Source: an uncultured Candidatus Poseidoniales archaeon
Lineage (GTDB): Archaea > Thermoplasmatota > Poseidoniia > Poseidoniales > Thalassarchaeaceae
DNA length: 64,000 nucleotides
Reading direction: 5' to 3'
Assembly (NCBI GenBank): GCA_964386765.1
Contig: CAYLUC010000002.1
Span: 2,202-66,201 of the forward strand
A model generated the notes under the pieces. It searched no databases. It had not been told where the DNA came from and worked only from the letters and a program-made list of their open reading frames with translations. The position numbers and the translations under genes were made by a program. Shown one piece after another: positions 26,381-39,384 of this stretch (position 1 is the first letter of the stretch; the number at the start of each line of letters is the position of its first letter).

Positions 26381-26492
26381 CCTAGAATCTTCGCAATGTT
26401 ACACTCTCCTTCGGCGTTTCGAAACGAGCAGGAGAAACGTTGTGCCGTGCTTTCGTATGCCTCAACATTCATAGGATAAAAGGCATGGAGCC

Positions 26493-26514
26493 GGCGATTA
26501 GCGTCGGCGAAAAT
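26493..26514 (+). promoter_or_regulatory. near-perfect 22-bp palindrome GTCGGCGAAAATTTTTGCCGAC, about 25 bp upstream of the smc start codon
   Basis: Dyad symmetry with one mismatch, centred on AAAATTTTT. It lies at a typical distance for a BRE/TATA or an operator of the smc-scpA-scpB operon. Confidence 0.35.
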
Positions 26515-26538
26515 TTTTGCCGACTCTTAGGTGATGGG

Positions 26539-29500
26539 ATGCATCTTATTCGAATTGAACTCGAGAACTTCAAGTCATTCGGAGGAGAGGTTGTCATTCC
26601 ATTTGACATGGGATTCACCGCTATCACTGGCCCGAATGGAAGCGGGAAATCAAATTGTGGGGACGCCATTCAGTTCGTTCTCGGACCCAAATCTACCAAG
26701 GCCCTCAGAGCATCAAATGTCTCAGAACTAATCTTCAATGGTGGAGGCAGGGGCAAGGCAGCCAAGCAGATGTCCGTAACTCTAGTTTTCGCAAATGTAC
26801 CAGAACACGATGGACAAAGAAGGCTAAGGGTTCAGGAGGACGAGGTCTCATTCACCAGGTCAGTAAGGCTGAATCGAAAGGGCGATCCAGTTTCATCGTT
26901 CAGGATAGGGGACAAACCGTCTACTGCCACAGAGATGCGGAGGGTCCTAGCTGAAGCAGGGCTTAGGGGAGATGGATACAATATCGTTCTGCAGGGTGAC
27001 GTCACTAATCTAGCCACCATGACCCCTCACAAGAGGAGAGGGGTGCTCGAAGAAGTCGCTGGAGTAACGGCTTATGACGATGAGATTCGAAGGGCGAACA
27101 ATCAGAGGAAGCATGTCGAGAATAGCATAGAGACAATAGATCTGCTAGAGGTCGACAAGAAGAAACAGCTCAAACAACTTGGGAAAGAAAGAGAGCAGGC
27201 TCTCAAATTCAGGGAGTTGAAGGAAGAGAGAGACAAGTCGAAGGTCACCCTTTACCAGTCTAGATACAGGAATAAAATTGACGAGGTCAAGTTGCTCGGA
27301 AATGAGAGATCGGACTACACGGATAGGGTGCGGGAACTCGACTCCTCAATAACAGAGGGAAATTCGAATCTTGTGAACTACGACGAAGAGCTCGTGAGAA
27401 TTGAGGCGGAAATTAGGGAAGTGCTAGCGGGAGACGCACAGAAGCTGATTCAAGAAATCCGTCAACATGAAATTGACATAGAGACGGGCTCCGATAGAAT
27501 CGGGGACCAGCGCAAGGTAATTTCCGAGTCAAAGGAAGAGGTCAATGTTCTGACGACTGAAGTGGAAAGGGCACACAGCGCGAGGAAGCAAGCAAGCGAC
27601 TCTCTGGATGAGGCTAACAACGCTCTTTCACTTGCTGACGAATCACTCATTCAGGCGTCCGAAGAAGAGAAGGAAGCTAGGAGGGCCATCGAGTCCGGCG
27701 ATAAGCATGCAAGAGACCTAAATCGAGCTCTAGGAAAGGCCGCCGATACAGTTTCTGCCGCTCAGGATAAGAACTCACAAGCTCAACTAGAGGCGGATAG
27801 GGCTTCTCAAGCATCCCAAATCGCCTCGGAGAATTTGGCAGATTTGGAGGAGAAATACGAGGAGGCCACAATGGTCAGAGACGATCTCGAACTTATCGGT
27901 GAAGACCTACGGGGCTCAGAAGGAGAATCTGACAGAGGGTCTCTGGCGGACGACTTCCGTAGGCTCCAGAAGCAGGAAAGCGAACTTAGGGCCGATAGAG
28001 ATAGATCTGAGACGAGACTAAGGGACGCAGAGAGAAACCTCAGCAAGGCCAAGGCGAGACAAGAGGCGAGATCCTCAGCACCCGGGTCAGCCCTAACTCT
28101 AGCAGCACTATCCAGACTAAGGGAGAGTGGACAGATCTCAGGTATTCTGGGCTCTCTAGGTGAGTTGACCTCACCGAAGGACCCCGCTCATGAGGAAGCA
28201 CTCGCAACAGCTCTCGGCAATGGACTAAGGAGCATAGTGGTGAGGGATGACGAGGTCGCCGCAAAGTGCATAGCATGGCTTCGCAAGAATAGTGGGGGAA
28301 GGGCTACTTTCTTGCCCCTCTCAAAACTAAAGTCATCAAGACCCCAAGGAAGAACGCTCCTTGTTGCTAGGAATCCAGGGATGATCGGTTTTGCCCATGA
28401 GCTACTCGACTATGACCAGGAGGTGGAGACAGCAGTTCTGTATGCCAGTCGAAACACGCTCTTGGTTGAGTCGATGGAAGTGGCAAGGAGGAATATGGGT
28501 GGAGTCAGGATGGTTACCCCTGACGGCTCTCTAATCGAGAGCTCCGGAGCAATGACAGGAGGATCTTCATCCAGGGGCAACAGGCCTTCATTTGGTGGTG
28601 GCCCAATTAGGAACTCAAGTCTGGAAAGGCTAGAAAGTGCAGTTCAGGAAGCGGATCTCCTCTATTCAACAGTGGATGCTGCACTGAGGGAGACCATGAC
28701 AAACATGCAATTACTCCGTGACAGGATTAATAATGTCGACGGAAGCGACCACTCTGTCAAGGTGAGGAATTGGAAAGCAGATATGGATAGGGCAACTAAG
28801 TCGGTAGCTGAGGCCGAGTCTAGGGTCATATCTGCAAAGTCCGAACTCGACTCCTCTGAGAAAACCAGGAAGGAGAAAGAATCCAATGCACTATCCGCTG
28901 AAGGCGAATTGAATGCAGCAATTGAGACTAGGTCACTGGCTGCAGAAGCGCTACAAGACAACACCCCTGATCACCTATCGGAGATCCTCAGGAAGGCCGA
29001 GCAGACAAGAACCAATGCTGAGAGAACCCGACTGGCGTCGGAGTCCTCCATCTCAATCAATCAAGAAAAACTCTCACTAATGGAAAGTAGGATTTCCGAG
29101 CTCGAGAGACAGCTCGACAAGCACAACACCGCCATAGAAAACGCAGAATCATCTATTACTACTCTCGAGAAATCCATCGAGAATTCCCGAAATGACCTTG
29201 AGGAACTTAAGACACAGTCCTCACAGTTCGATGAAGAGGAGAAAATACTGACAGACAAGAGGGACACTCTCTTCGAAGAGCGCGCAAGCCTCAGGGCATC
29301 ACTTGACAGCCTATCGAAGGAGAGGCAGACAATCAGGAGTAGAATCGATGAACTCAATGCACAGATTCAGCAGAAGAGGGAAGCTGTGGGCGAAACAGAA
29401 TCCGAGCTACTAGAGGCTGGTGTGGATATACCCTCTGAAGATGTACAACTACCAACAATTGCCGAGGCGGAAAGAGTGTTGCAGGGACTCGAACGCCGCC

Positions 29501-30465
29501 TCGGCAACCTAGGAGATGTCAACATGCTCGCCATTGAGCAGTACGATTCAACGGCAGAGAGAATTTCAGACCTGATGGAAGATGGCAAGACCCTAAGATC
29601 CCGCAGGGACCACTTAGTGTCCATAGCCGAGCAACTTGAGTCGGAGCGAAAGATGAGATTTATGACAGTCTTTGAGCATGTGAATAGTAACTTTAGCAGA
29701 GTCTACGAGATTCTTCAGCCATCAGGAAGTGGGAAACTCAGACTTGAGAACAAGAAGAATCCCTTCGACGGTGGATTGGACATGGCTTGCGTACCTCCCG
29801 GTAAGAGCAGAAACACAAGGAGATCCGCGCTTTCAGGAGGCGAGAAGTCAATGGCGGCATTGGCACTAATTTTCGCAATACAGGACTATGAGCCGAGTCC
29901 ATTCTACTATTTCGACGAAGTCGACCAGAATCTGGATCCATTCAACTCGGGTAGAATAGCCACCCTATGCAGAATAAGAAGTGAGAGGGCCCAATTTATC
30001 ATGGTGACATTGAGGAAGGTGAGCCTTTCTCTAGCTGACCATCACATCGGAATTACACATGCAGGGGACGGCTGCAGTAGAAGAATCACTGACTTCGATA
30101 GGGCTGCAGCAATAGAGCTCAGTGAAGAGCTAGAGGCAGAGGAGAAAGCCCAAGCCGAGTCCAAGGCAGAACTCGAAGCCATGCCTGAACTCCCGAAGCC
30201 CGAAGATATGCCGAAAGTCCCCGAACCTCTTGCCTCCCCGAAGAGCCTTGGTGGACTTGCTGACAGGGCTGGAGTCGAGGTCAATGGGGATGGGGAAGTT
30301 ACAGAATCGGAAAATAATGAGAGCAGTATAGAATCACTTAGGGAGAGGACCGAGGACTGGTCTGAGGACATCGAGGAAAGAAACCAGGTGGAGTTCCCTG
30401 ATGAGCCCCCCTCTTCAGAATCCGAGGTAGAAGAACTCCCGGAGGCCGAAGTAGAATCAGATTGA
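26539..30465 (+). CDS. smc: Chromosome segregation protein SMC
   Basis: The start is set at MHLIRIELENFKSF (ATG 26539), because the upstream part of the long ORF has no homology. Walker A GPNGSGKSN, long coiled coils, a hinge, and a C-terminal LSGGEKS signature with a Walker B DE. An acidic C-terminal tail of about 150 aa. Confidence 0.9.
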   Translation: MHLIRIELENFKSFGGEVVIPFDMGFTAITGPNGSGKSNCGDAIQFVLGPKSTKALRASNVSELIFNGGGRGKAAKQMSVTLVFANVPEHDGQRRLRVQEDEVSFTRSVRLNRKGDPVSSFRIGDKPSTATEMRRVLAEAGLRGDGYNIVLQGDVTNLATMTPHKRRGVLEEVAGVTAYDDEIRRANNQRKHVENSIETIDLLEVDKKKQLKQLGKEREQALKFRELKEERDKSKVTLYQSRYRNKIDEVKLLGNERSDYTDRVRELDSSITEGNSNLVNYDEELVRIEAEIREVLAGDAQKLIQEIRQHEIDIETGSDRIGDQRKVISESKEEVNVLTTEVERAHSARKQASDSLDEANNALSLADESLIQASEEEKEARRAIESGDKHARDLNRALGKAADTVSAAQDKNSQAQLEADRASQASQIASENLADLEEKYEEATMVRDDLELIGEDLRGSEGESDRGSLADDFRRLQKQESELRADRDRSETRLRDAERNLSKAKARQEARSSAPGSALTLAALSRLRESGQISGILGSLGELTSPKDPAHEEALATALGNGLRSIVVRDDEVAAKCIAWLRKNSGGRATFLPLSKLKSSRPQGRTLLVARNPGMIGFAHELLDYDQEVETAVLYASRNTLLVESMEVARRNMGGVRMVTPDGSLIESSGAMTGGSSSRGNRPSFGGGPIRNSSLERLESAVQEADLLYSTVDAALRETMTNMQLLRDRINNVDGSDHSVKVRNWKADMDRATKSVAEAESRVISAKSELDSSEKTRKEKESNALSAEGELNAAIETRSLAAEALQDNTPDHLSEILRKAEQTRTNAERTRLASESSISINQEKLSLMESRISELERQLDKHNTAIENAESSITTLEKSIENSRNDLEELKTQSSQFDEEEKILTDKRDTLFEERASLRASLDSLSKERQTIRSRIDELNAQIQQKREAVGETESELLEAGVDIPSEDVQLPTIAEAERVLQGLERRLGNLGDVNMLAIEQYDSTAERISDLMEDGKTLRSRRDHLVSIAEQLESERKMRFMTVFEHVNSNFSRVYEILQPSGSGKLRLENKKNPFDGGLDMACVPPGKSRNTRRSALSGGEKSMAALALIFAIQDYEPSPFYYFDEVDQNLDPFNSGRIATLCRIRSERAQFIMVTLRKVSLSLADHHIGITHAGDGCSRRITDFDRAAAIELSEELEAEEKAQAESKAELEAMPELPKPEDMPKVPEPLASPKSLGGLADRAGVEVNGDGEVTESENNESSIESLRERTEDWSEDIEERNQVEFPDEPPSSESEVEELPEAEVESD

Positions 30466-30474
30466 GGTGACAAT

Positions 30475-31476
30475 GTGGCAGTACTAGACGGTCAAGCAAT
30501 GAGGGATGACATAGTTTCCAGGCTCCTGGGGGGAGAGGCAGATTTGGCCACTAGCAAGTATCTGGATAGGATTTCAGAGTTAGCTTGCATGGAGGAGGCA
30601 GAACACCAATTCCTAATTGATCCATTTGACAGATCAGTGGCTCTGGTTTTTCAGATGTTCCAGTCAAGTGATTTGGATCCATGGGATGTCGACTTATCCT
30701 GCTTCCTCGAGATGTTTTCCAGCAGGATAGAAAATTCTGAAAACATCGATCTACCAACCTGTGGTCGTTTGATAAGGATGGCATGGTCAATACTCAAGGG
30801 ACAGGCATCGGACCTAATTGAGAGACAAGAAAGAGCACTCGACTTTGCAGATGAGGATGATAATTGGGAATTCGAGGGAGGGTGGGAGACTGACTTCGAT
30901 GATGCTGACTACAATTTCTCAGTCGGGGTCTTGTCAGGTGCCGCTGACGAGGTACTCCCATCAATGTTCGAAGGAAGAATCCACAGAGACGAGGGCCGCC
31001 CTGTAACTCTCGGCGAATTAATTCTCGGACTACAAGAAGCCGGGAGGCTTGCGGAGGAGCAGAGAATCAGAGAGAAGATTGCTGAGGAGAGGAGGGACGC
31101 ACTGTCCGTTGCAAGAAAGAGATTCAGTGGGAGTCTGCATGTCGAGGATTTAGAAGGGGACTTGGAAAGGACATGGGAGGCACTCATATCCAGGGCCAGG
31201 GGCAATGGAAGCAATATTTCCCTCGAGGATATCTCAAGTGAGTTGATGGACAGGTCGATGAATTCTGGAGTACAGGTCGAAGAGGCCCAAGCAGAAGCTC
31301 AGGTAACAGCACTGGTTTCCGCACTTTTCCTCACGAACAGGGGTTACACCGAACTGTCCCAGGAGCCTGGAAAAGATGGGACTATCACCCTAAAACCACT
31401 CTGGGAGGGCGATGAGACCTTCTCAGAATTAACAAACAGACTACACCCGAATGAAGGATCACTGGGGGGCCAATAA
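30475..31476 (+). CDS. scpA: Segregation and condensation protein A (ScpA kleisin)
   Basis: The DPWDVDL motif, an acidic central region and a C-terminal winged helix. It sits between smc and scpB. Confidence 0.85.
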   Translation: MAVLDGQAMRDDIVSRLLGGEADLATSKYLDRISELACMEEAEHQFLIDPFDRSVALVFQMFQSSDLDPWDVDLSCFLEMFSSRIENSENIDLPTCGRLIRMAWSILKGQASDLIERQERALDFADEDDNWEFEGGWETDFDDADYNFSVGVLSGAADEVLPSMFEGRIHRDEGRPVTLGELILGLQEAGRLAEEQRIREKIAEERRDALSVARKRFSGSLHVEDLEGDLERTWEALISRARGNGSNISLEDISSELMDRSMNSGVQVEEAQAEAQVTALVSALFLTNRGYTELSQEPGKDGTITLKPLWEGDETFSELTNRLHPNEGSLGGQ

Positions 31477-32102
31477 TGACTGAAGGACCACCCCTCTCTT
31501 CTCTACTGGAAGCCATACTCTTCGGGGCCGGACGTTCGATGTCAGTCGATGAATTGGCCAAACTCCTTGGAAAGAGAAACTTTCAGGTCTCTGAATCACT
31601 AGCTGAATTAAAGAAAGAGATGGAGGAGAGGGAGAAATCCGCTCTTCAACTATCGGAGGTAACTGGCAGGTGGATAATTGAGGTCAACCCGTCACTGTCA
31701 CAGTTCCTTCCCGACTCATTCAAACCCGAGATCCCACAAAGGCTCCTCCCTGCCGCCGCCCTGATTGCCTACCATCAGCCAATGCCTCAGGCACAACTAG
31801 TCGACATGCTCGGACAAAAAGCATACGACCATGTCAGGGATCTGGCTAACTTGGGGCTTATTGACAAAAGGAGGGAAGGCCTAACTCGGAGACTCACCAC
31901 AACCAGAAGGTTCGCCGAGTACTTTGGTTGCCCCGAAGTGGAATATCGAAAGGTCAAGGCATGGTTCAGGGGGGAGGCAGCCAAGTTGGGGCTAACTAGC
32001 GCCCAATTAGCCGCCTCACTAGCTCCTGAAGAGCAGATGACGATTGCCGAGTTCTCTGGCAATGAAGAAGTATCTGAGATCGAAGCTCAGGCCGAAGAGT
32101 GA
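31476..32102 (+). CDS. scpB: Segregation and condensation protein B (ScpB)
   Basis: LEAILFGAGRSMSVDELAKLL is the hallmark ScpB N-terminal winged helix. It overlaps the scpA stop. Confidence 0.85.
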   Translation: MTEGPPLSSLLEAILFGAGRSMSVDELAKLLGKRNFQVSESLAELKKEMEEREKSALQLSEVTGRWIIEVNPSLSQFLPDSFKPEIPQRLLPAAALIAYHQPMPQAQLVDMLGQKAYDHVRDLANLGLIDKRREGLTRRLTTTRRFAEYFGCPEVEYRKVKAWFRGEAAKLGLTSAQLAASLAPEEQMTIAEFSGNEEVSEIEAQAEE

Positions 32103-33440: not shown

Positions 33441-33540
33441 TTTGCGGAAAGGCCTCTTCCAGATGCCCTTAGTTGAACCATCTCGAATTCTTCAAATGAC
33501 AGTGAATATTGGATCATTTCTCAAATTACCATGCTCTTTG

Positions 33541-33735
33541 GTTGCATTTTTCTCAAAATAAAGCGTTAATTTAGTCGTTAACGCTTTGTTAACGCATCTA
33601 TAAAGCGTTAGAAATACGTTAATGAATGATATTTGAAAACGATATACTGAATGAAAAATGTCTAATAATAATCCTTAGAAAAACGAAATAATACGTTAAT
33701 TCATTGTCTACTAAGCGTAAGTAAGCGTGAATGTT
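33541..33735. repeat. AT-rich intergenic repeat cluster (core GCGTTAA / ACGTTAAT in both orientations); candidate origin-recognition or regulatory repeats
   Basis: Copies are TAAAGCGTTAAT (33559-33570), CGTTAACGCTTT (33576-33587, reverse complement of the first), GTTAACGC (33588-33595), TAAAGCGTTAG (33601-33611), ATACGTTAATGAATGA (33614-33629), ATACGTTAATTCATTG (33691-33706), and tandem AAGCGT(A/G)A at 33713-33730. Confidence 0.45.
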
Positions 33736-33763
33736 ATGTACTCAACCACTAGACGGGTGGACG

Positions 33764-35623
33764 ATGGACCAGAGGGACATAGATCTTCTCGGCCTGCCTC
33801 CTTTGAGGGGAAACCCATTCGATTTGAGACCAATAGAAATTGAAAGAGCAGGAGACCTGGTTGGTAGAGATTATCTTCTTGCGAAATGGAGGGAGCACAT
33901 TGTCTCGAAGTCTCCGAGGATGGCGATACTCGTTGGAGACAGAGGATCAGGAAGGACTTCATTGATTCGAGCACTGGCATCCCAAACCAGCAGGAGCTTT
34001 GTTGGACAGTATTGGCCTGAGGAAGATCCCGTTGATTCAGTAATCAATGAGTTGACAATCCACTTCGGGGATTTTAACCCCCCCAAGTCAACTCAACTGA
34101 AGATAGATCGACTAGTGGGAAATCTAGGGCGTGAGTCCGAATCCCTCCCCTTGATAGTATTCGACTATCCCTCAGAAGTGGACATTTCACCGTTCCTCTC
34201 TCTTATTGCACCTGTCTTGCAGAGACTGAGGGCGTTCACGGTCGTTGTGTTGACTCCCTCCCAACTCTCATCCATCACTGAAGAAACATTGGGCATGTTT
34301 GACGATCCGGAGTTCCTCGAGGGGTTGACAACACAACAAATTCAGCAACTATCGGATAATCTGGTCTCACGCAGGGCCAAGGAGAAGTGGAAAATTAATG
34401 CAAGGTTGCTAGATGCAATTCGTGAGACTACGGGGGGAACTCCTCGTGACGTCATTAGGCTGCTAAGGGATCTCACGGATGAGAGGAGAGATGTGGGGTC
34501 ACATGGAACTCTGAAGAGGGTAATGAATTGGAGGGGCGATATTGTTGAGAATGAGGGTAGAACTAGTTTTGAGGACACTCCACAAATTGACGATACTTCA
34601 CTGCCCGAGATACTGCCAGAGGTCGCCAACCCTGATGTCACAGAATACAACGTAGATGTCGATAATCTCGCGAATAATGACGAAATAGTTGACGATTCTA
34701 CGACAGATTCCCCCGATTCCCCTGATTCATTCGAATATCTAGTGACGCCAGAAGAAGTGGCCAAAGAACCAGATCTAGAATTTTCTGAGGATATTTCTGA
34801 TGATCCAGAGGACCTCTGGGATGAAGTGGAAGATCATAGTGAACACAAACAAGAAAATATTCAGGCCCCAGAAAAACAAGGAACTCTCGAGGACTTCGTC
34901 TACGAACCCGGCACAGAGCCGCCAATGTTTGAAACTGGATTCGGTTTCAATCGCTTGGCGGCTAGATCAAGGAGCGCTCCCTCAAAGCCCACAACTTCAG
35001 ATGGAACTGAGATTATTGACGCCTCAAACTACCAATATCCCGAACCACGTAAAGCAGAACCACCGCCATTCCCCGAACCAACCGAAAATATCGTAGAGGA
35101 CGTTATTGAAGATTCATCAGCACCCATAGACACCACAGTAAGGTCAAATTCTGAATCAGGGGTCATGTCAACGGATTCGGCATATTGGTCAGTCGATGAA
35201 TCCTCGGCCTCAACTCTGCCCGATTTATCTCAAAATCCAATTCCAGAACCGCCCGGGGCAGTTTTTGGAATAGAAGAGGCCCCCCTCGAGGAATATTTGC
35301 CGGAAGAAGAAATTTCAGAACCAGTTGCCCCAAGGATAGCCCCCAGAATTTCAGTCTCTCCCAAGTGGGACTCAGATAATCCCCTTGACGAATCCAAATT
35401 AGGTTCATTGAATGAGGCAGAGATAATGATTCTAGAGGCATCAGCATCGAGGGAAATTTCTCCCTCTGACGCGGAACTTCAGGCCAGATTGGAGGTCGGA
35501 AGGCCAAGGCTGTCTCAGATATACAACGAACTATTCAGATCCGGTCTTCTTTCTGTTAGGAAACAGGGGAGAAAGAGACTTTTCAGGATTAGTGAAGCAG
35601 CGAACAGTCATTTTGGAGGGTAA
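33764..35623 (+). CDS. Divergent Orc1/Cdc6-like AAA+ protein with degenerate ATPase motifs, a long acidic disordered insertion and a C-terminal winged helix
   Basis: LVGRDYLLAKW...RMAILVGDRGSGRTSLIRAL aligns with LVGRDSELSEL...RAVIMGQVGTGKTVL of the canonical Cdc6 at 38116..39384, with the Walker A Lys replaced by Arg. PLIVFDYPSEVD is the Walker B equivalent and lacks the Glu. GGTPRDVIRLLRDL matches the Cdc6 sensor-2 motif G.AR.A..LL. Roughly 300 Asp/Glu/Pro/Ser-rich residues follow. The C-terminus (LSQIYNELFRSGLLSVRKQGRKRLFRI) is a winged-helix domain. Confidence 0.65.
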   Translation: MDQRDIDLLGLPPLRGNPFDLRPIEIERAGDLVGRDYLLAKWREHIVSKSPRMAILVGDRGSGRTSLIRALASQTSRSFVGQYWPEEDPVDSVINELTIHFGDFNPPKSTQLKIDRLVGNLGRESESLPLIVFDYPSEVDISPFLSLIAPVLQRLRAFTVVVLTPSQLSSITEETLGMFDDPEFLEGLTTQQIQQLSDNLVSRRAKEKWKINARLLDAIRETTGGTPRDVIRLLRDLTDERRDVGSHGTLKRVMNWRGDIVENEGRTSFEDTPQIDDTSLPEILPEVANPDVTEYNVDVDNLANNDEIVDDSTTDSPDSPDSFEYLVTPEEVAKEPDLEFSEDISDDPEDLWDEVEDHSEHKQENIQAPEKQGTLEDFVYEPGTEPPMFETGFGFNRLAARSRSAPSKPTTSDGTEIIDASNYQYPEPRKAEPPPFPEPTENIVEDVIEDSSAPIDTTVRSNSESGVMSTDSAYWSVDESSASTLPDLSQNPIPEPPGAVFGIEEAPLEEYLPEEEISEPVAPRIAPRISVSPKWDSDNPLDESKLGSLNEAEIMILEASASREISPSDAELQARLEVGRPRLSQIYNELFRSGLLSVRKQGRKRLFRISEAANSHFGG

Positions 35624-35628
35624 TAGGC

Positions 35629-35922
35629 GTGAATGATGGAGAATTAGTGACCAGGGAATTGGTTGAGAAATACTTGGCAATTACACGAGAGGCTAGAAAG
35701 AAGGCAACACCGTTAGTCAAAGAGGGAGATGAGCGTAAAAATCTTGATTCAATGCTGGAGATGTGCGACAACTATCACTCGGATGCCACTCATTTCATGG
35801 AGAAAGGCGACCTAGTCAGGGCCTTTGGAGCAATCAACTATGCCCATGCGTGGCTGGATGCAGCTGTGAGGATAGGACTGCTCGATGGGCATGGGGACGA
35901 TGTTCTATTCACCCTTCCCTAA
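35629..35922 (+). CDS. DUF357-family archaeal protein
   Basis: 97 aa. ...KGDLVRAFGAINYAHAWLDAAVRIGLL... matches the conserved core of the archaeal DUF357 family, from memory. Confidence 0.5.
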   Translation: MNDGELVTRELVEKYLAITREARKKATPLVKEGDERKNLDSMLEMCDNYHSDATHFMEKGDLVRAFGAINYAHAWLDAAVRIGLLDGHGDDVLFTLP

Positions 35923-36287
35923 GGCCCAATAAATCGAAGCATCCTTCCTGAGACAACTTCGATATAACCGCACCCCGACATCGCCAACCTTTCCTTGAGT
36001 CCGGTGTCAACGGTTAGTACTGGCCACCTATTTTCTTTGGATAGGTGTACTAGCATGTCGTCAGTGTGACTGTGCCCTTCTGGGTTTTCAATCATCGTTG
36101 ACCTAGCTTCAAGGAGTTTGAGCAGTAGCCCCCTTTTCTCCATTGCCAACTCATTCAACTCTTCCAGTACCTTCTCCAGTAGCATGAACTCGGGGTTTCC
36201 GACTACGTCCCTCATTGCGGTGTCTATGTTCAGGCCTGAGTCCATTAGTGCGGCCCAACCACATGAATCGACGAGCACGCCCGCCAT
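35919..36287 (-). CDS. PIN-domain protein
   Basis: 122 aa. N-terminal VLVDSCGWAALMD and C-terminal VLTVDTGLKERLAMSGCGYIEV are PIN-like acidic motifs. It lies directly upstream (same strand) of aIF2-gamma, a conserved archaeal arrangement. Confidence 0.55.
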   Translation of the reverse strand: MAGVLVDSCGWAALMDSGLNIDTAMRDVVGNPEFMLLEKVLEELNELAMEKRGLLLKLLEARSTMIENPEGHSHTDDMLVHLSKENRWPVLTVDTGLKERLAMSGCGYIEVVSGRMLRFIGP

Positions 36288-38115: not shown

Positions 38116-39384
38116 TCACTTCTGCCGCTTGGCAAACTCTTTCTCGATTCGACTCGCTATTCCTGCTGGTACTATGTTGGTCATAGTGATGTACTGTGTC
38201 CTGCCCCTCCCCACCGTAGAGTTGGCCGATCTCGTCTCAACCAGCCCCTGCTTCTCGAGGGTCTTCAGATGCTTCCAGAAAGTAGTATAACTTCTGGTTT
38301 TGAATTCGAACTCTTCACACACTAACTCATACAGCTTTCTAGCGTCGCCACTGGATACCTCTTCTTCCTTGCGCAGTCTCCTGCATATCCCCAGTAGGAC
38401 AAGTTTCTGATGGTCGCTTAACATGTCTATCTGACTTGGTTCGAGGGATGCCGTCCTTATCGTGCTAGGCGTCACGTCTTCAAGAAGAACCTCGCCTCTT
38501 CCAGCTTCCTCAGCCTTCCTAACCGCAGCTTCCAGGAGCTCTATGGCAAGCCTTGCGTCTCCTGTTTCCGCAGAGAATCTACCAATTTTTTCTAGAACCT
38601 CTATGCTAAACGAACCAGTCCTGCAGGATGCTTCGTAGCGCTGCCTTGCTATTCCAACAAGGGCCTCTGCGGAATATGGCTTGAGTCGAAGGACGCTGCT
38701 TTCTCCCAGCCTAGATATTATCGCCGGTTCCATTTGATCTAGCAAGTTATCGTCCTGGCTTACCAGGACTAGCGACAAAGAGCCATGTCCATCCTGACTC
38801 TCATCAATCCTCAGAAGTTTGTATATCAAATCATGACTATCTCGTCTGATCAGGACATCTACTTCGTCCAGTACTAGGAGAAGATGCCCCCCTCTGGATC
38901 TGATGTTCCTCCTTATCGATTGTATTATTTCTCCCGAACTGAAACCACGTTCTGGGTGTCTGGAGTCAAGTGAAATTGCAATCTGCTGAAGTACTTGTGA
39001 AGTTGATGGATGATTTCTGCAGTTAACATGGGAAACCACAATCCTCCTCTTGCCGTCTAGGGCCCTCATCAGGTCTTCCCCGAATCTTTTCGTGAGTACA
39101 GTTTTGCCGGTTCCCACTTGCCCCATTATTACAGCACGTCCACTCACTCCTTCGTTACCAATTCCAAGGAACATCGAAGCGAGCTCAGACAATTCCGAGT
39201 CTCTTCCCACTAATGTCGGAGGAGTCCAGTCGAATGACAACGGGACACGGTCTAGGAGGACCTTGCCCGCGCCAATCCTGTCTACTATGTAGTCCGCCAT
39301 CACACTAGTCGTACTAACGTCGTTCTTAGACATATTCTGAACGATGCCCTCGATGGTGCCAATTGCCTCATGGAACGAAGGCAA
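38116..39384 (-). CDS. cdc6: Orc1/Cdc6 replication initiation protein (canonical)
   Basis: Walker A GQVGTGKTV, Walker B LLLVLDEVD, sensor-2 ETGDARLAIELLEAA, and a C-terminal winged helix (QGLVETRSANSTVGRGRTQYI). Confidence 0.9.
   Translation of the reverse strand: MPSFHEAIGTIEGIVQNMSKNDVSTTSVMADYIVDRIGAGKVLLDRVPLSFDWTPPTLVGRDSELSELASMFLGIGNEGVSGRAVIMGQVGTGKTVLTKRFGEDLMRALDGKRRIVVSHVNCRNHPSTSQVLQQIAISLDSRHPERGFSSGEIIQSIRRNIRSRGGHLLLVLDEVDVLIRRDSHDLIYKLLRIDESQDGHGSLSLVLVSQDDNLLDQMEPAIISRLGESSVLRLKPYSAEALVGIARQRYEASCRTGSFSIEVLEKIGRFSAETGDARLAIELLEAAVRKAEEAGRGEVLLEDVTPSTIRTASLEPSQIDMLSDHQKLVLLGICRRLRKEEEVSSGDARKLYELVCEEFEFKTRSYTTFWKHLKTLEKQGLVETRSANSTVGRGRTQYITMTNIVPAGIASRIEKEFAKRQK

What the first reader, a model, noticed from the sequence alone, without database searches (positions are those of the whole stretch)
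33764..35623. ATPase-dead Orc1/Cdc6 paralog with a 300-residue acidic disordered insertion
The N-terminal 250 aa align motif by motif with the canonical Cdc6 in the same window. Shared elements are LVGRD, the P-loop position, a sensor-1-like VVVLTPSQ, and the sensor-2 GGTPRDVIRLLRDL (canonical: ETGDARLAIELLEAA). The Walker A lysine is Arg (GDRGSGRTS) and the Walker B DE is DY (LIVFDYPSEVD), so ATP hydrolysis is probably lost. Between the AAA+ core and the C-terminal winged helix (LSQIYNELFRSGLLSVRKQGRKRLFRI) there is a region of about 300 aa that is extremely Asp/Glu/Pro/Ser-rich and predicted disordered. It resembles a DNA-mimic or protein-recruitment tail. A catalytically inactive Orc that still has its DNA-binding winged helix, beside a repeat-bearing AT-rich spacer, suggests a regulatory or architectural origin factor rather than a canonical initiator.
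Basis: partly seen in the sequence, partly recalled or inferred. Interest (0 to 1): 0.75.

Follow-up and report, generated by a model that had tools for sequence, protein, structure and literature searches.

The report
Inactive AAA+ DNA-binder plus box array
A gene conserved in the abundant marine archaea Poseidoniales encodes a catalytically dead relative of replication-initiator-type ATPases, joined by a long acidic flexible linker to a DNA-binding domain; it always lies behind a rigid array of eight GCGTTAA boxes that it probably binds, but the cellular process served is still unknown.

Summary
Window 33764-35623 (+) encodes a 619-aa protein with three parts: an N-terminal AAA+ core and lid (res ~32-255), a 277-aa acidic, low-confidence linker (net charge -56), and a C-terminal winged helix. 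Walker A Lys is Arg, and the Walker B Glu and the arginine finger are missing. These changes run through the whole family, so they are not sequencing errors. The "Orc1/Cdc6 paralog" label holds only at superfamily level. ORC/Cdc6 structures are the best fold matches, and a profile comparison with the genome's own Orc1 gives 90% probability. No Orc1/Cdc6 family model matches, and the winged helix is not of Cdc6 type. Both domains are far closer to small intact ExeA-like AAA_22+wHTH proteins, so this is such a protein with a linker inserted and catalysis lost. The new result is the upstream spacer. It carries eight GCGTTAA-type boxes with indel-free spacing, ending at the gene's TATA-like element. 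Box and recognition helix are conserved even in orthologs whose N-terminal domains are far more diverged. Most likely the protein binds this array as a static oligomer and autoregulates. An origin role is untested; no canonical ORBs occur nearby.

The parts
33561..33740 (+). Conserved ~180-bp upstream element: eight GCGTTAA-type boxes plus a TATA-like element, with fixed geometry
   Evidence: 5 of the window's 9 RCGTTAA hits lie within 137 bp here. There are 377 boxes in ~26 kb of spacers against 35 in ~800 kb of flanks. The consensus is indel-free across 68 (distal) and 54 (proximal) dereplicated spacers. Distances are fixed.
33563..33622 (.). Distal block, boxes 1-5: 33563-69 (+), 33578-84 (-), 33589-95 (-), 33605-11 (+, GCGTTAG), 33616-22 (+). 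Box centres are 15, 11, 16 and 11 bp apart.
   Evidence: The order and orientation are the same in L001 and L002. Distant orthologs have a symmetric version around TTAACGCGTTAA.
33623..33692 (.). Inter-block stretch. Its sequence varies but its length is conserved (box 5 to box 6 is 77-78 bp in 48 of 53 spacers). It is always more AT-rich than the flanks and contains a semi-conserved CG-N5-ACTG.
   Evidence: mean -18 GC points, 53 of 53
33693..33731 (+). Proximal block, boxes 6-8: ACGTTAA 33693-99, GCGTAAG 33715-21, GCGTGAA 33725-31. Box 6 to box 8 is 32 bp.
33734..33740 (+). TATA-like TTATGTA centred ~27 nt before the ATG. It implies a leaderless or near-leaderless mRNA (inferred).
   Evidence: The conserved GTGAAyrTTA(T/A)G segment sits at a fixed distance from the gene. 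The promoter assignment is inference from archaeal promoter geometry.
33764..35623 (+). Gene for the 619-aa pseudo-ATPase / acidic linker / wHTH protein (stop codon included)
33788..33838 (+). N-terminal motif LGLPPLRGNPFDLRPIE (res 9-25), the most conserved stretch of the N-terminus. The 'GNPF' is shared with ExeA-like relatives.
33857..34528 (+). AAA+ core and helical lid (res 32-255)
33935..33961 (+). Deviant P-loop GDRGSGRTS (res 58-66), with Arg64 in place of the Walker A Lys
34028..34126 (+). Two helices (res 89-100 and 110-121) between strand 2 and strand 3, an initiator-specific-motif-like insertion
   Evidence: secondary structure. It aligns with the corresponding Cdc6 segment.
34151..34171 (+). 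Walker B remnant LIVFDYP (res 130-136). Asp134 is kept and the catalytic Glu is replaced by Tyr135.
34433..34489 (+). Sensor-2 / lid helix GGTPRDVIRLLRDLTDERR (res 224-242). Arg228 is invariant.
34532..35362 (+). Acidic, low-confidence linker (res 257-533, net charge -56) with conserved short islands: DDPEDLWDE (346-354), QGTLEDFVY (372-380), GFGFNRLAARSR (392-403), V-STDSAYWSV (467-477), FGI (501-503) and W535-x-x-D-x-P.
   Evidence: Linker acidity is conserved in 60 members (-38 to -82). Islands are shared with distant orthologs.
35396..35614 (+). C-terminal winged helix-turn-helix (res 545-617). The recognition helix RPRLSQIYNELFR (580-592, nt 35501-35539) is nearly invariant across the family.
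35629..35922 (+). DUF357 gene, 5 nt downstream on the same strand. It is probably co-transcribed, and the linkage holds in all lineages.

Best explanation
This is a Poseidoniales-specific, site-specific DNA-binding pseudo-ATPase. It descends from a small ExeA-like AAA_22+wHTH protein, itself a distant relative of Orc1/Cdc6. It has lost the Walker A Lys, the Walker B Glu and the arginine finger, and has gained a ~280-aa acidic flexible linker between the lid and the winged helix.

Proposed mechanism:
1. The winged helix reads the GCGTTAA boxes (inferred).
2. The non-hydrolysing AAA+ modules act as a static oligomerisation scaffold. They may still hold nucleotide, because the P-loop glycines, the Ser/Thr, the Walker B Asp and the sensor-2 Arg are invariant. 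The scaffold places protomers on the phased boxes, with 10-11, 15-16 and 22 bp between neighbours and a fixed 77-78 bp between the two blocks. This implies a looped or wrapped complex (inferred).
3. Boxes 7 and 8 abut the TATA-like element, so occupancy autoregulates the leaderless target-DUF357 operon (inferred).
4. The acidic linker, with its conserved W/F-containing islands, projects as a platform for partner proteins or as an intramolecular DNA mimic that tunes binding (speculative).

Shown here: the domain architecture, the loss of catalytic residues, the family relationships, the rigid conserved DNA element and its strict linkage to the gene. Which cellular process the complex serves is not shown.
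For: - Architecture and dead motifs.
- Homology: family N-terminal domain vs intact ExeA-like+wHTH proteins 99.5%, E 1.9e-22. C-terminal wHTH vs theirs 97.9%, E 5e-13. N-terminal domain vs Orc1 90%, E 1.6e-6. ORC/Cdc6 are the top structural matches.
- DNA element: ~330-fold box enrichment in the spacer. Indel-free consensus and fixed distances. The last boxes lie next to the TATA-like element ~27 nt before the ATG.
- Protein-box link: the gene and the array are adjacent in all 71 Poseidoniales genome loci. They are also adjacent in three distant orthologs whose N-terminal domains score only 99-178 bits against the family profile. In those orthologs both the CGTTAA box and the recognition helix R-x-R-L-S-Q-I/L-x-N stay conserved.
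- The array stays with the gene where the upstream neighbour differs.
- No other box cluster occurs in the 64-kb window.
- Precedent for a non-initiator Orc1-type protein acting as a site-specific regulator: Orc1-2 of Sulfolobales (PMC6061795, PMC9738581).
Against: - There is no direct evidence that this protein, rather than another factor, binds the boxes.
- The wHTH model has only moderate confidence (pLDDT 58-69), and its ArsR-type matches are far below curated cut-offs.
- No base-by-base covariation between helix and box could be shown, because both are nearly invariant.
- Oligomerisation of a module that lacks its arginine finger is assumed, not shown.
- Whole genomes could not be searched for further arrays. 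The single metagenome scan was dominated by chance hits.
Confidence: 0.5

Rival explanations
1. The spacer is the chromosomal replication origin (or one origin) of Poseidoniales, of a non-ORB type. The protein is an origin-specific recognition or architectural factor that works with the canonical Orc1/Cdc6 encoded ~2.5 kb downstream. The AT-rich, length-conserved inter-block stretch is the unwinding element.
For: - Synteny with the single orc1/cdc6 gene holds across the whole clade.
- cdc6 has no intergenic spacer of its own.
- No canonical ORB occurs in the 64-kb window, and the mini-ORB core occurs nowhere in 791 kb of Poseidoniales loci around this locus and cdc6. The related Methanomassiliicoccales do have canonical ORBs next to orc1 (PMC4153887).
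- The repeated boxes lie in both orientations beside an AT-rich stretch of constant length.
- The AAA+/wHTH gene adjacent to its box array resembles the orc1-oriC and dnaA-oriC arrangements (own knowledge).
- Some intact relatives sit among replication and repair genes: PCNA and Topo VI-A, or RadA and RPA.
Against: - In the window the flanking gene blocks converge on the locus, and cumulative GC skew has a maximum there, not a minimum. This is weak evidence, because the skew follows gene orientation.
- Boxes on the two sides of the AT-rich stretch point the same way, unlike inverted ORBs.
- In GC-rich genomes the stretch is ~46-50% GC.
- Any intergenic region is expected to be more AT-rich than genes.
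- Boxes 7-8 overlap the promoter, as operator sites do.
- The protein cannot hydrolyse ATP.
Confidence: 0.2
2. The boxes are bound by a different factor, for example another transcription factor. The protein's winged helix then has other DNA targets or mediates protein contacts, and the adjacency of gene and array reflects only regulation of this operon by that factor.
For: - No direct binding evidence exists.
- The wHTH matches to DNA-binding families are weak.
- Winged helices can serve as protein-interaction modules (own knowledge).
Against: - Box and recognition helix stay conserved together over a divergence at which the rest of the protein has largely changed.
- The array follows the gene when the upstream neighbour changes.
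- Eight phased sites fit an oligomerising binder better than a simple regulator.
Confidence: 0.12
3. The array is a centromere-like or SMC-loading site, and the protein is a ParB-like adaptor. It nucleates on the boxes and uses its linker motifs to recruit SMC-ScpAB or a segregation machine.
For: - The smc-scpA-scpB operon lies immediately upstream in the window and in several lineages, including the distant ortholog L202.
- There is a single box cluster per sampled region.
- A site-binding protein encoded next to its own sites resembles parB-parS (own knowledge).
Against: - The SMC linkage is not universal. L001 has citrate synthase upstream, and many MGIIb loci have another neighbour.
- There is no similarity to ParB or other known partition proteins.
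- The idea rests on gene neighbourhood only.
Confidence: 0.08
4. It is a recent, decaying duplicate of the neighbouring canonical Orc1/Cdc6, that is, a degenerate paralog in the strict sense.
For: - Same order of domains, with ORC/Cdc6 as the best fold matches.
- It lies 2.5 kb from orc1.
Against: - No BLASTP similarity to the window's Cdc6.
- No match to TIGR02928, Cdc6_lid or Cdc6_C.
- The C-terminal domain is unrelated to the Cdc6 WHD at profile level.
- It is much closer to ExeA-like proteins.
- The deviant motifs and the protein as a whole are under strong conservation across an order, so it is not decaying.
Confidence: 0.05

Closest known systems
Small archaeal ExeA-like AAA_22 + winged-helix proteins (e.g. 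P0223 and P0227; one cluster member is named 'predicted ATPase ExeA/predicted transcriptional regulator'; partial match to TIGR03015)
   Same: Both domains are homologous: N-terminal 99.5%, E 1.9e-22, and C-terminal wHTH 97.9%, E 5e-13. They share the N-terminal 'GNPF' motif and the sensor-2 'G-x-P-R-x-x-I-R'.
   Different: These proteins keep GKT, DE and an Arg at the finger position, are ~360-380 aa, and have no acidic linker. Their function is unknown, and no box array was seen next to P0223.
Archaeal Orc1/Cdc6 initiators (TIGR02928; AAA+ with ISM, Cdc6_lid PF22703, Cdc6_C PF09079), including the window's own copy at 38116-39384
   Different: No family model matches. Walker A Lys, Walker B Glu and the arginine finger are lost. 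A 277-aa acidic linker is inserted. The winged helix is not of Cdc6 type. The cognate DNA boxes (GCGTTAA) are unlike ORBs.
Orc1-2 of Sulfolobales, a non-initiator Orc1 paralog that acts as a global DNA-damage-response transcription regulator (PMC6061795, PMC9738581)
   Same: It is an Orc-type AAA+/ISM/wH protein used as a site-specific regulator rather than as an initiator.
   Different: Orc1-2 is a true Orc1/Cdc6 family member without an inserted linker (as described in PMC9738581). It regulates many promoters. Here only one array, upstream of the protein's own gene, is known.
Catalytically inactive AAA+ scaffolds derived from initiators or clamp loaders: Sir3 (Orc1 paralog), Orc2/3/5, clamp-loader delta'
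   Different: There is no evidence of common descent beyond the AAA+ superfamily. None of them combines a sequence-specific wHTH with a long acidic linker.
DnaA-oriC and ParB-parS arrangements
   Same: A DNA-binding protein is encoded next to a phased array of short boxes that it binds, with autoregulation (own knowledge). This is an analogy of layout only.
   Different: There is no homology beyond the AAA+ fold (DnaA) or none at all (ParB). DnaA needs ATP binding and hydrolysis, and this protein cannot hydrolyse.

Membership tests
Archaeal Orc1/Cdc6 (TIGR02928 / PRK00411) | Score above the curated cut-off of the family model | tested here: not met
   There is no TIGR02928 or PRK00411 match at E<=1 for the target. 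The window's Cdc6 scores 218 bits against a cut-off of 181.
Archaeal Orc1/Cdc6 (TIGR02928 / PRK00411) | AAA+ fold of the initiator type, with a helical insertion (ISM) between strands 2 and 3 and a lid | tested here: met
Archaeal Orc1/Cdc6 (TIGR02928 / PRK00411) | Intact Walker A GxxGxGK[ST] | tested here: not met
   The motif is GDRGSGR64TS. The position is R in 239 of 246 family sequences.
Archaeal Orc1/Cdc6 (TIGR02928 / PRK00411) | Walker B hhhhDE with catalytic Glu | tested here: not met
   The motif is LIVFD134-Y135. Glu never occurs at this position in the family.
Archaeal Orc1/Cdc6 (TIGR02928 / PRK00411) | Arginine finger (box VII) | tested here: not met
   Cdc6 'ISRL' aligns to G-M178-F, and no conserved Arg occurs in that segment.
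Archaeal Orc1/Cdc6 (TIGR02928 / PRK00411) | Sensor-2 arginine in the lid | tested here: met
   R228 is invariant in G-x-P-R and aligns with the G-D-A-R of Cdc6.
Archaeal Orc1/Cdc6 (TIGR02928 / PRK00411) | Cdc6-type C-terminal winged helix (PF09079) directly after the lid | tested here: not met
   There is no PF09079 or PF22703 match. hhalign of the C-terminal domain vs the Cdc6 WHD gives 2.3%. A 277-aa linker separates lid and wHTH.
Archaeal Orc1/Cdc6 (TIGR02928 / PRK00411) | Binds ORB elements at an origin and loads MCM | not testable with these tools
   No ORB-like sites occur near the gene. The adjacent boxes are GCGTTAA.
ExeA-like AAA_22 + wHTH proteins (COG3267-type, archaeal) | Homologous AAA_22-type N-terminal domain with an N-terminal 'NPF' motif | tested here: met
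   hhalign gives 99.5%, E 1.9e-22 over 220 columns. Sub-threshold AAA_22/AAA_16 matches occur in all 18 members scanned.
ExeA-like AAA_22 + wHTH proteins (COG3267-type, archaeal) | Homologous C-terminal winged helix | tested here: met
   hhalign gives 97.9%, E 5.2e-13 over 71 columns.
ExeA-like AAA_22 + wHTH proteins (COG3267-type, archaeal) | Catalytically competent ATPase and compact ~360-aa architecture | tested here: not met
   Relatives have GKT and DE and no linker. The target has R64, Y135 and M178 plus a 277-aa linker.
ArsR/SmtB-type winged-helix regulators | wHTH matching the family model above its cut-off, in a small dimeric sensor | tested here: not met
   The NF033788 match is 18.3 bits against a cut-off of 55. 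HlyU 4k2e scores E 0.019. The fold is a wHTH, but the protein is not a small ArsR-type sensor. Some databases nevertheless label members 'ArsR family regulator'.
PCNA-interacting proteins (PIP box) | Q-x-x-[LIM]-x-x-[FY]-[FY] in a flexible region, conserved among orthologs | tested here: inconclusive
   QGTLEDFVY (res 372-380) fits except at position 8 and is conserved in MGII. Distant orthologs have GGAEIIEM-PGT-PP at the equivalent place, with no Gln or Phe. Binding could not be modelled.

The most novel reading that the evidence does not exclude
The eight-box element and its dedicated pseudo-ATPase could form the chromosome's organising centre in Poseidoniales. That would be a replication origin recognised through GCGTTAA boxes instead of ORBs, or a centromere-like or SMC-loading site next to smc-scpAB and orc1. 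In that reading a non-hydrolysing, ExeA/Orc-like AAA+ scaffold marks the site, and its acidic linker motifs recruit the replication or condensin machinery.
Probability: 0.2. Interest if true: 0.85.

Novelty: new variant of a known kind. Interest (0 to 1): 0.6.

Why it matters
Poseidoniales (Marine Group II) are among the most abundant archaea of the surface ocean and remain uncultured. Nothing about their replication origin or chromosome organisation turned up in the searchable literature.

This locus offers a well-defined, order-wide protein-DNA pair with three features:
- A catalytically dead initiator-like AAA+ protein under strong purifying selection.
- A rigid eight-box DNA element.
- Conserved proximity to orc1 and, in several lineages including the window, to smc-scpAB.

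If the element is an origin or a centromere-like site, it would be a recognition system unlike the ORB/Orc1 pairing used by other archaea. It would also give a marker for growth-rate estimates from metagenome coverage.

Even in the modest reading (an autoregulated scaffold), it is a clear natural case of an AAA+ module re-used without hydrolysis and combined with a long acidic linker that carries short conserved motifs. It can be tested with recombinant protein and a 190-bp DNA fragment.

Tried and rejected
- BLASTP of the target against the window's Cdc6 found nothing, so profile methods were needed.
- A profile search of PDB sequences found no N-terminal match and only weak ArsR/HlyU/NanR wHTH hits.
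- A separate AF2 model of the N-terminal domain alone was worse than the same region in the full-length model (mean pLDDT 65.6) and was not used.
- Rfam on the spacer gave only far-sub-threshold matches (mir-1256, RsaE). The spacer is not a known RNA.
- Canonical ORB searches in the window and in 791 kb of loci gave chance-level or zero matches.
- The viral scan for the box palindrome returned chance hits only, and no viral homolog of the protein exists.
- The metagenome scan for tandem boxes returned mostly chance hits. The array-like hits without the gene are unrelated repeats from other organisms, so there is no evidence of a second site.
- The AFDB fold library was unavailable.
- The PIP-box reading of QGTLEDFVY was considered and down-weighted, because distant orthologs lack the Gln and Phe.
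- The 'sequencing error' explanation for R64/Y135 was rejected on the family census.
- The 'decaying recent Orc1 duplicate' explanation was rejected.
- GC skew in the 64-kb window follows gene orientation and cannot locate an origin.
- The ~350-aa gene next to the distant orthologs has no family match and no copy in the window.
Full report
**The observation**

The window holds an ORF at 33731..35623 (+). Identical database proteins are 619 aa, homologs begin at the equivalent Met, and the upstream ATG at 33731 lies inside a conserved promoter-like element.

The protein has three parts (AlphaFold2 on an 18-sequence alignment):
- A confident alpha/beta P-loop domain with a helical lid (res ~32-255, pLDDT 75-90).
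- A stretch modelled at pLDDT below 50 almost throughout (res 257-533).
- A winged helix-turn-helix (res 545-617, pLDDT 58-69).

The middle part is 277 aa, with 25.3% D+E, 5.1% K+R, 12.3% P and 17% S+T, and a net charge of -56.

- GDRGSGR64TS, with Arg at the Walker A Lys position.
- LIVFD134-Y135-P, with Tyr at the catalytic Glu position.
- LT164PSQ at the end of strand 4.
- The sensor-2 segment GTPR228DVIRLLRDL.

**Not errors, and not decay**

The protein has more than 550 homologs in marine metagenomes, matching over essentially its full length. In 246 distinct family sequences the Walker A position is Arg in 239 and Lys in 7. The residue after the Walker B Asp is Y, F, V, L, A, H, M or C, and never Glu.

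The P-loop glycines, the Ser/Thr, the Walker B Asp and the sensor-2 Arg are invariant. The aligned position of the Cdc6 arginine finger is Met178.

The module has therefore lost every residue needed for hydrolysis while keeping those that hold a nucleotide. It is under purifying selection. Whether it still binds ATP cannot be decided here.

**Family placement**

BLASTP against the window's canonical Orc1/Cdc6 (38116-39384, TIGR02928 at 218 bits) finds nothing. Pfam and NCBIfam give only sub-threshold generic P-loop matches (AAA_16 at 24.5 bits, AAA_22 at 20 bits). Nothing matches TIGR02928, Cdc6_lid or Cdc6_C.

Structure comparison puts ORC/Cdc6 first in both programs:
- Foldseek: Drosophila Orc1/Cdc6 and Pyrobaculum Cdc6 at E 2e-7.
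- MuB and TnsC (13.6), NLR NB-ARC domains and RFC follow closely.

The model has two helices between strands 2 and 3, as in the initiator-specific motif.

A profile of the N-terminal domain was searched against 1.84 billion representatives and gave 120 hits. The stronger full-length hits that were read are family members. The weakest significant hits are proteins of ~356-397 aa with intact GKT and DE, AAA_22/ATPase_2 domains and a C-terminal wHTH. They are not Cdc6. One cluster member is named 'predicted ATPase ExeA/predicted transcriptional regulator'.

Profile-profile comparison settles the order of relatedness:

| Comparison | Probability | E-value |
|---|---|---|
| Family N-terminal domain vs small ExeA-like+wHTH proteins | 99.5% | 1.9e-22 |
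| Family N-terminal domain vs Poseidoniales Orc1 | 90.1% | 1.6e-6 |
| Small proteins vs Orc1 | 97.3% | 2.8e-11 |
| Family wHTH vs wHTH of the small proteins | 97.9% | 5e-13 |
| Family wHTH vs Cdc6 winged helix | 2.3% | 0.02 |

So the protein is an ExeA-like AAA_22+wHTH protein, a sister group of Orc1/Cdc6. It has acquired a linker and lost catalysis. It is not a decayed copy of the neighbouring initiator.

**Distribution and synteny**

All 71 loci found in one-genome-per-species GTDB assemblies are Poseidoniales, covering both MGIIa and MGIIb. One is labelled Acidimicrobiaceae, presumably a binning error.

The neighbourhood is HMG-CoA reductase (-) | spacer | target (+) | DUF357 (+) | PIN_9 (-) | aIF2-gamma (-) | S6e (-) | Orc1/Cdc6 (-), often preceded by smc-scpA-scpB.

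A distant ortholog (P0161, 130 bits against the N-terminal profile) shows the same synteny, with one extra ~350-aa gene after the target. Two other distant orthologs keep the DUF357 linkage, and one of them also keeps PIN.

These distant members keep the full architecture:
- A GSGR[TS]S P-loop.
- No Walker B Glu.
- An acidic linker.
- A near-identical recognition helix.

Linker net charge is -38 to -82 (median -56) in all 60 members measured, at lengths of 249-675 aa, although the sequence is poorly conserved.

Short islands survive in the linker:
- An acidic stretch ending in Trp.
- G-[FM]-[FG]-x-L-x-x-R-[SN]-[RK].
- [LYFW]-W-[VI].
- F-G-[IF]-[ED].
- A W/P motif before the wHTH.

QGTLEDFVY resembles a PIP box. 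The Gln and Phe are absent in distant orthologs, so that reading is weak.

**The upstream DNA element (the main new result)**

The 323-bp spacer (33441-33763) carries eight boxes of core GCGTTAA. Boxes 1-5 run in the orientation -> <- <- -> -> at 33563-33622. Box 6 is at 33693, and two GCGT[GA]A[AG] boxes are at 33715 and 33725. A TATA-like TTATGTA follows immediately, centred ~27 nt before the ATG.

- Five of the window's nine RCGTTAA matches fall within 137 bp here.
- Over 78 loci there are 377 boxes in ~26 kb of spacer against 35 in ~800 kb of flanks, about 330-fold enrichment. None clusters near cdc6.
- Across 68 (distal) and 54 (proximal) dereplicated spacers the two blocks align without a single indel.
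- Box centres are 15, 11, 16 and 11 bp apart in the distal block, and 22 and 10 bp apart in the proximal block.
- Box 5 to box 6 is 77-78 bp in 48 of 53 spacers, although the intervening sequence varies.
- Box 6 to box 8 is 32 bp, and box 8 to the gene is also fixed.
- The intervening stretch is always more AT-rich than the flanks, as any intergenic DNA tends to be.
- The array stays with the gene where the upstream neighbour differs.
- The three distant orthologs carry the same boxes, two of them as a symmetric array around TTAACGCGTTAA.
- The spacer matches no Rfam family.

**Interpretation**

Three things point to this protein's winged helix as the box reader, with autoregulation of a leaderless target-DUF357 operon:
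- The strict co-occurrence of gene and array.
- The joint conservation of the box and of the recognition helix R-x-R-L-S-Q-I-x-N, over a divergence that has changed most of the protein.
- The overlap of the last boxes with the gene's own promoter.

The rigid phasing over ~170 bp suggests a defined multi-protomer complex, for which the dead AAA+ module is the obvious scaffold. These steps are inferred, not shown.

A non-initiator Orc1 paralog acting as a site-specific regulator has a precedent in Orc1-2 of Sulfolobales (PMC6061795, PMC9738581). Catalytically inactive AAA+ scaffolds such as Sir3, Orc5 and delta' appear among the fold matches.

**Origin or not**

In favour:
- The element is the only repeat-bearing non-coding DNA near the single orc1 gene.
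- orc1 has no spacer of its own.
- Canonical ORBs, which the related Methanomassiliicoccales do have next to orc1 (PMC4153887), are absent from the window. The mini-ORB core is absent from 791 kb of Poseidoniales sequence around this locus and cdc6.

Against:
- Gene blocks converge on the locus, and cumulative GC skew peaks there, though this follows gene orientation.
- The boxes flanking the AT-rich stretch are not inverted.
- The stretch is ~46-50% GC in GC-rich genomes.
- The proximal boxes look like operators.

I found no literature on Poseidoniales origins. I rate the origin reading at about 0.2 and a centromere-like or SMC-loading reading at about 0.08. Both are compatible with the protein binding the boxes.

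**What led nowhere**

- Viral scans.
- The metagenome scan for tandem boxes, which gave chance hits and unrelated repeats.
- The PDB sequence search.
- The N-terminal-only model.
- The AFDB library, which was unavailable.
- The ~350-aa partner gene, which has no family match.

**Verdict**

The protein is a new variant of a known kind: an inactivated ExeA/Orc-like AAA+ protein with a winged helix and an inserted acidic linker. It comes with a newly recognised cognate DNA element that is conserved across an abundant, uncultured archaeal order. Family members carry only the labels 'hypothetical protein' or 'ArsR family regulator'.

Noticed in passing
L079:3042-4100; L080:2092-3129; L202:9812-10861: In the distant orthologous lineages a conserved ~345-352-aa gene sits between the target and DUF357. 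It has W/G-rich repeats and a helical C-terminal tail. It matches no Pfam or NCBIfam family and has no copy in this window, and may be a partner of the target protein.
   Followed up: partly
window 33731-33763: The longest ORF starts at an ATG (33731) that lies inside the conserved promoter element (box 8 and the TATA-like segment). Gene callers could over-extend the protein by 11 residues. The conserved start is 33764.
   Followed up: yes
window 33640-33651, and the same position in other spacers: A semi-conserved CG-N5-ACTG motif (cgatatactg) lies ~20 nt after box 5, inside the otherwise variable inter-block stretch. Its role is unknown.
   Followed up: no
window 26440-32102: An smc (1341 aa) - scpA - scpB operon lies immediately upstream, separated from the target only by HMG-CoA reductase. 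The same arrangement occurs in L002 and in the distant ortholog locus L202, but not in all lineages.
   Followed up: partly
window ~12900-49600: Long same-strand gene blocks (+ up to ~32.1 kb, - from ~35.9 kb) converge on the locus, and cumulative GC skew peaks at 32-36 kb. The immediate neighbours (HMGR and the target) diverge from the spacer.
   Followed up: partly
L058 (PAQG01000020.1): A contig labelled 'Acidimicrobiaceae bacterium' carries the complete archaeal locus, including the box array. This is probably a binning error in that MAG.
   Followed up: no
L281:296-400; L322:3-105; also L204, L217, L308: Unrelated metagenome contigs carry dense CGTTAA/TTAACG repeat arrays. L281 and L322 even include the CGTTAACGCGTTAA palindrome. 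None encodes a family member, so they may be iteron-like elements of other organisms.
   Followed up: partly
L201:136-4952; L323:1349-5607: The catalytically intact small relatives P0223 and P0227 both lie divergently next to a LigT-type 2'-5' RNA ligase gene and among DNA-metabolism genes: PCNA and Topo VI-A for P0223; RadA, RPA and a histone for P0227. Another relative, P0225, sits beside a HerA-like ATPase and PIN/MazE toxin genes.
   Followed up: partly
window 35919-36287 and 35629-35922: The PIN_9 gene (-) overlaps the 3' end of the DUF357 gene (+) by 4 nt. The DUF357 / PIN_9 / aIF2-gamma / S6e block is conserved next to the target in all lineages examined.
   Followed up: no
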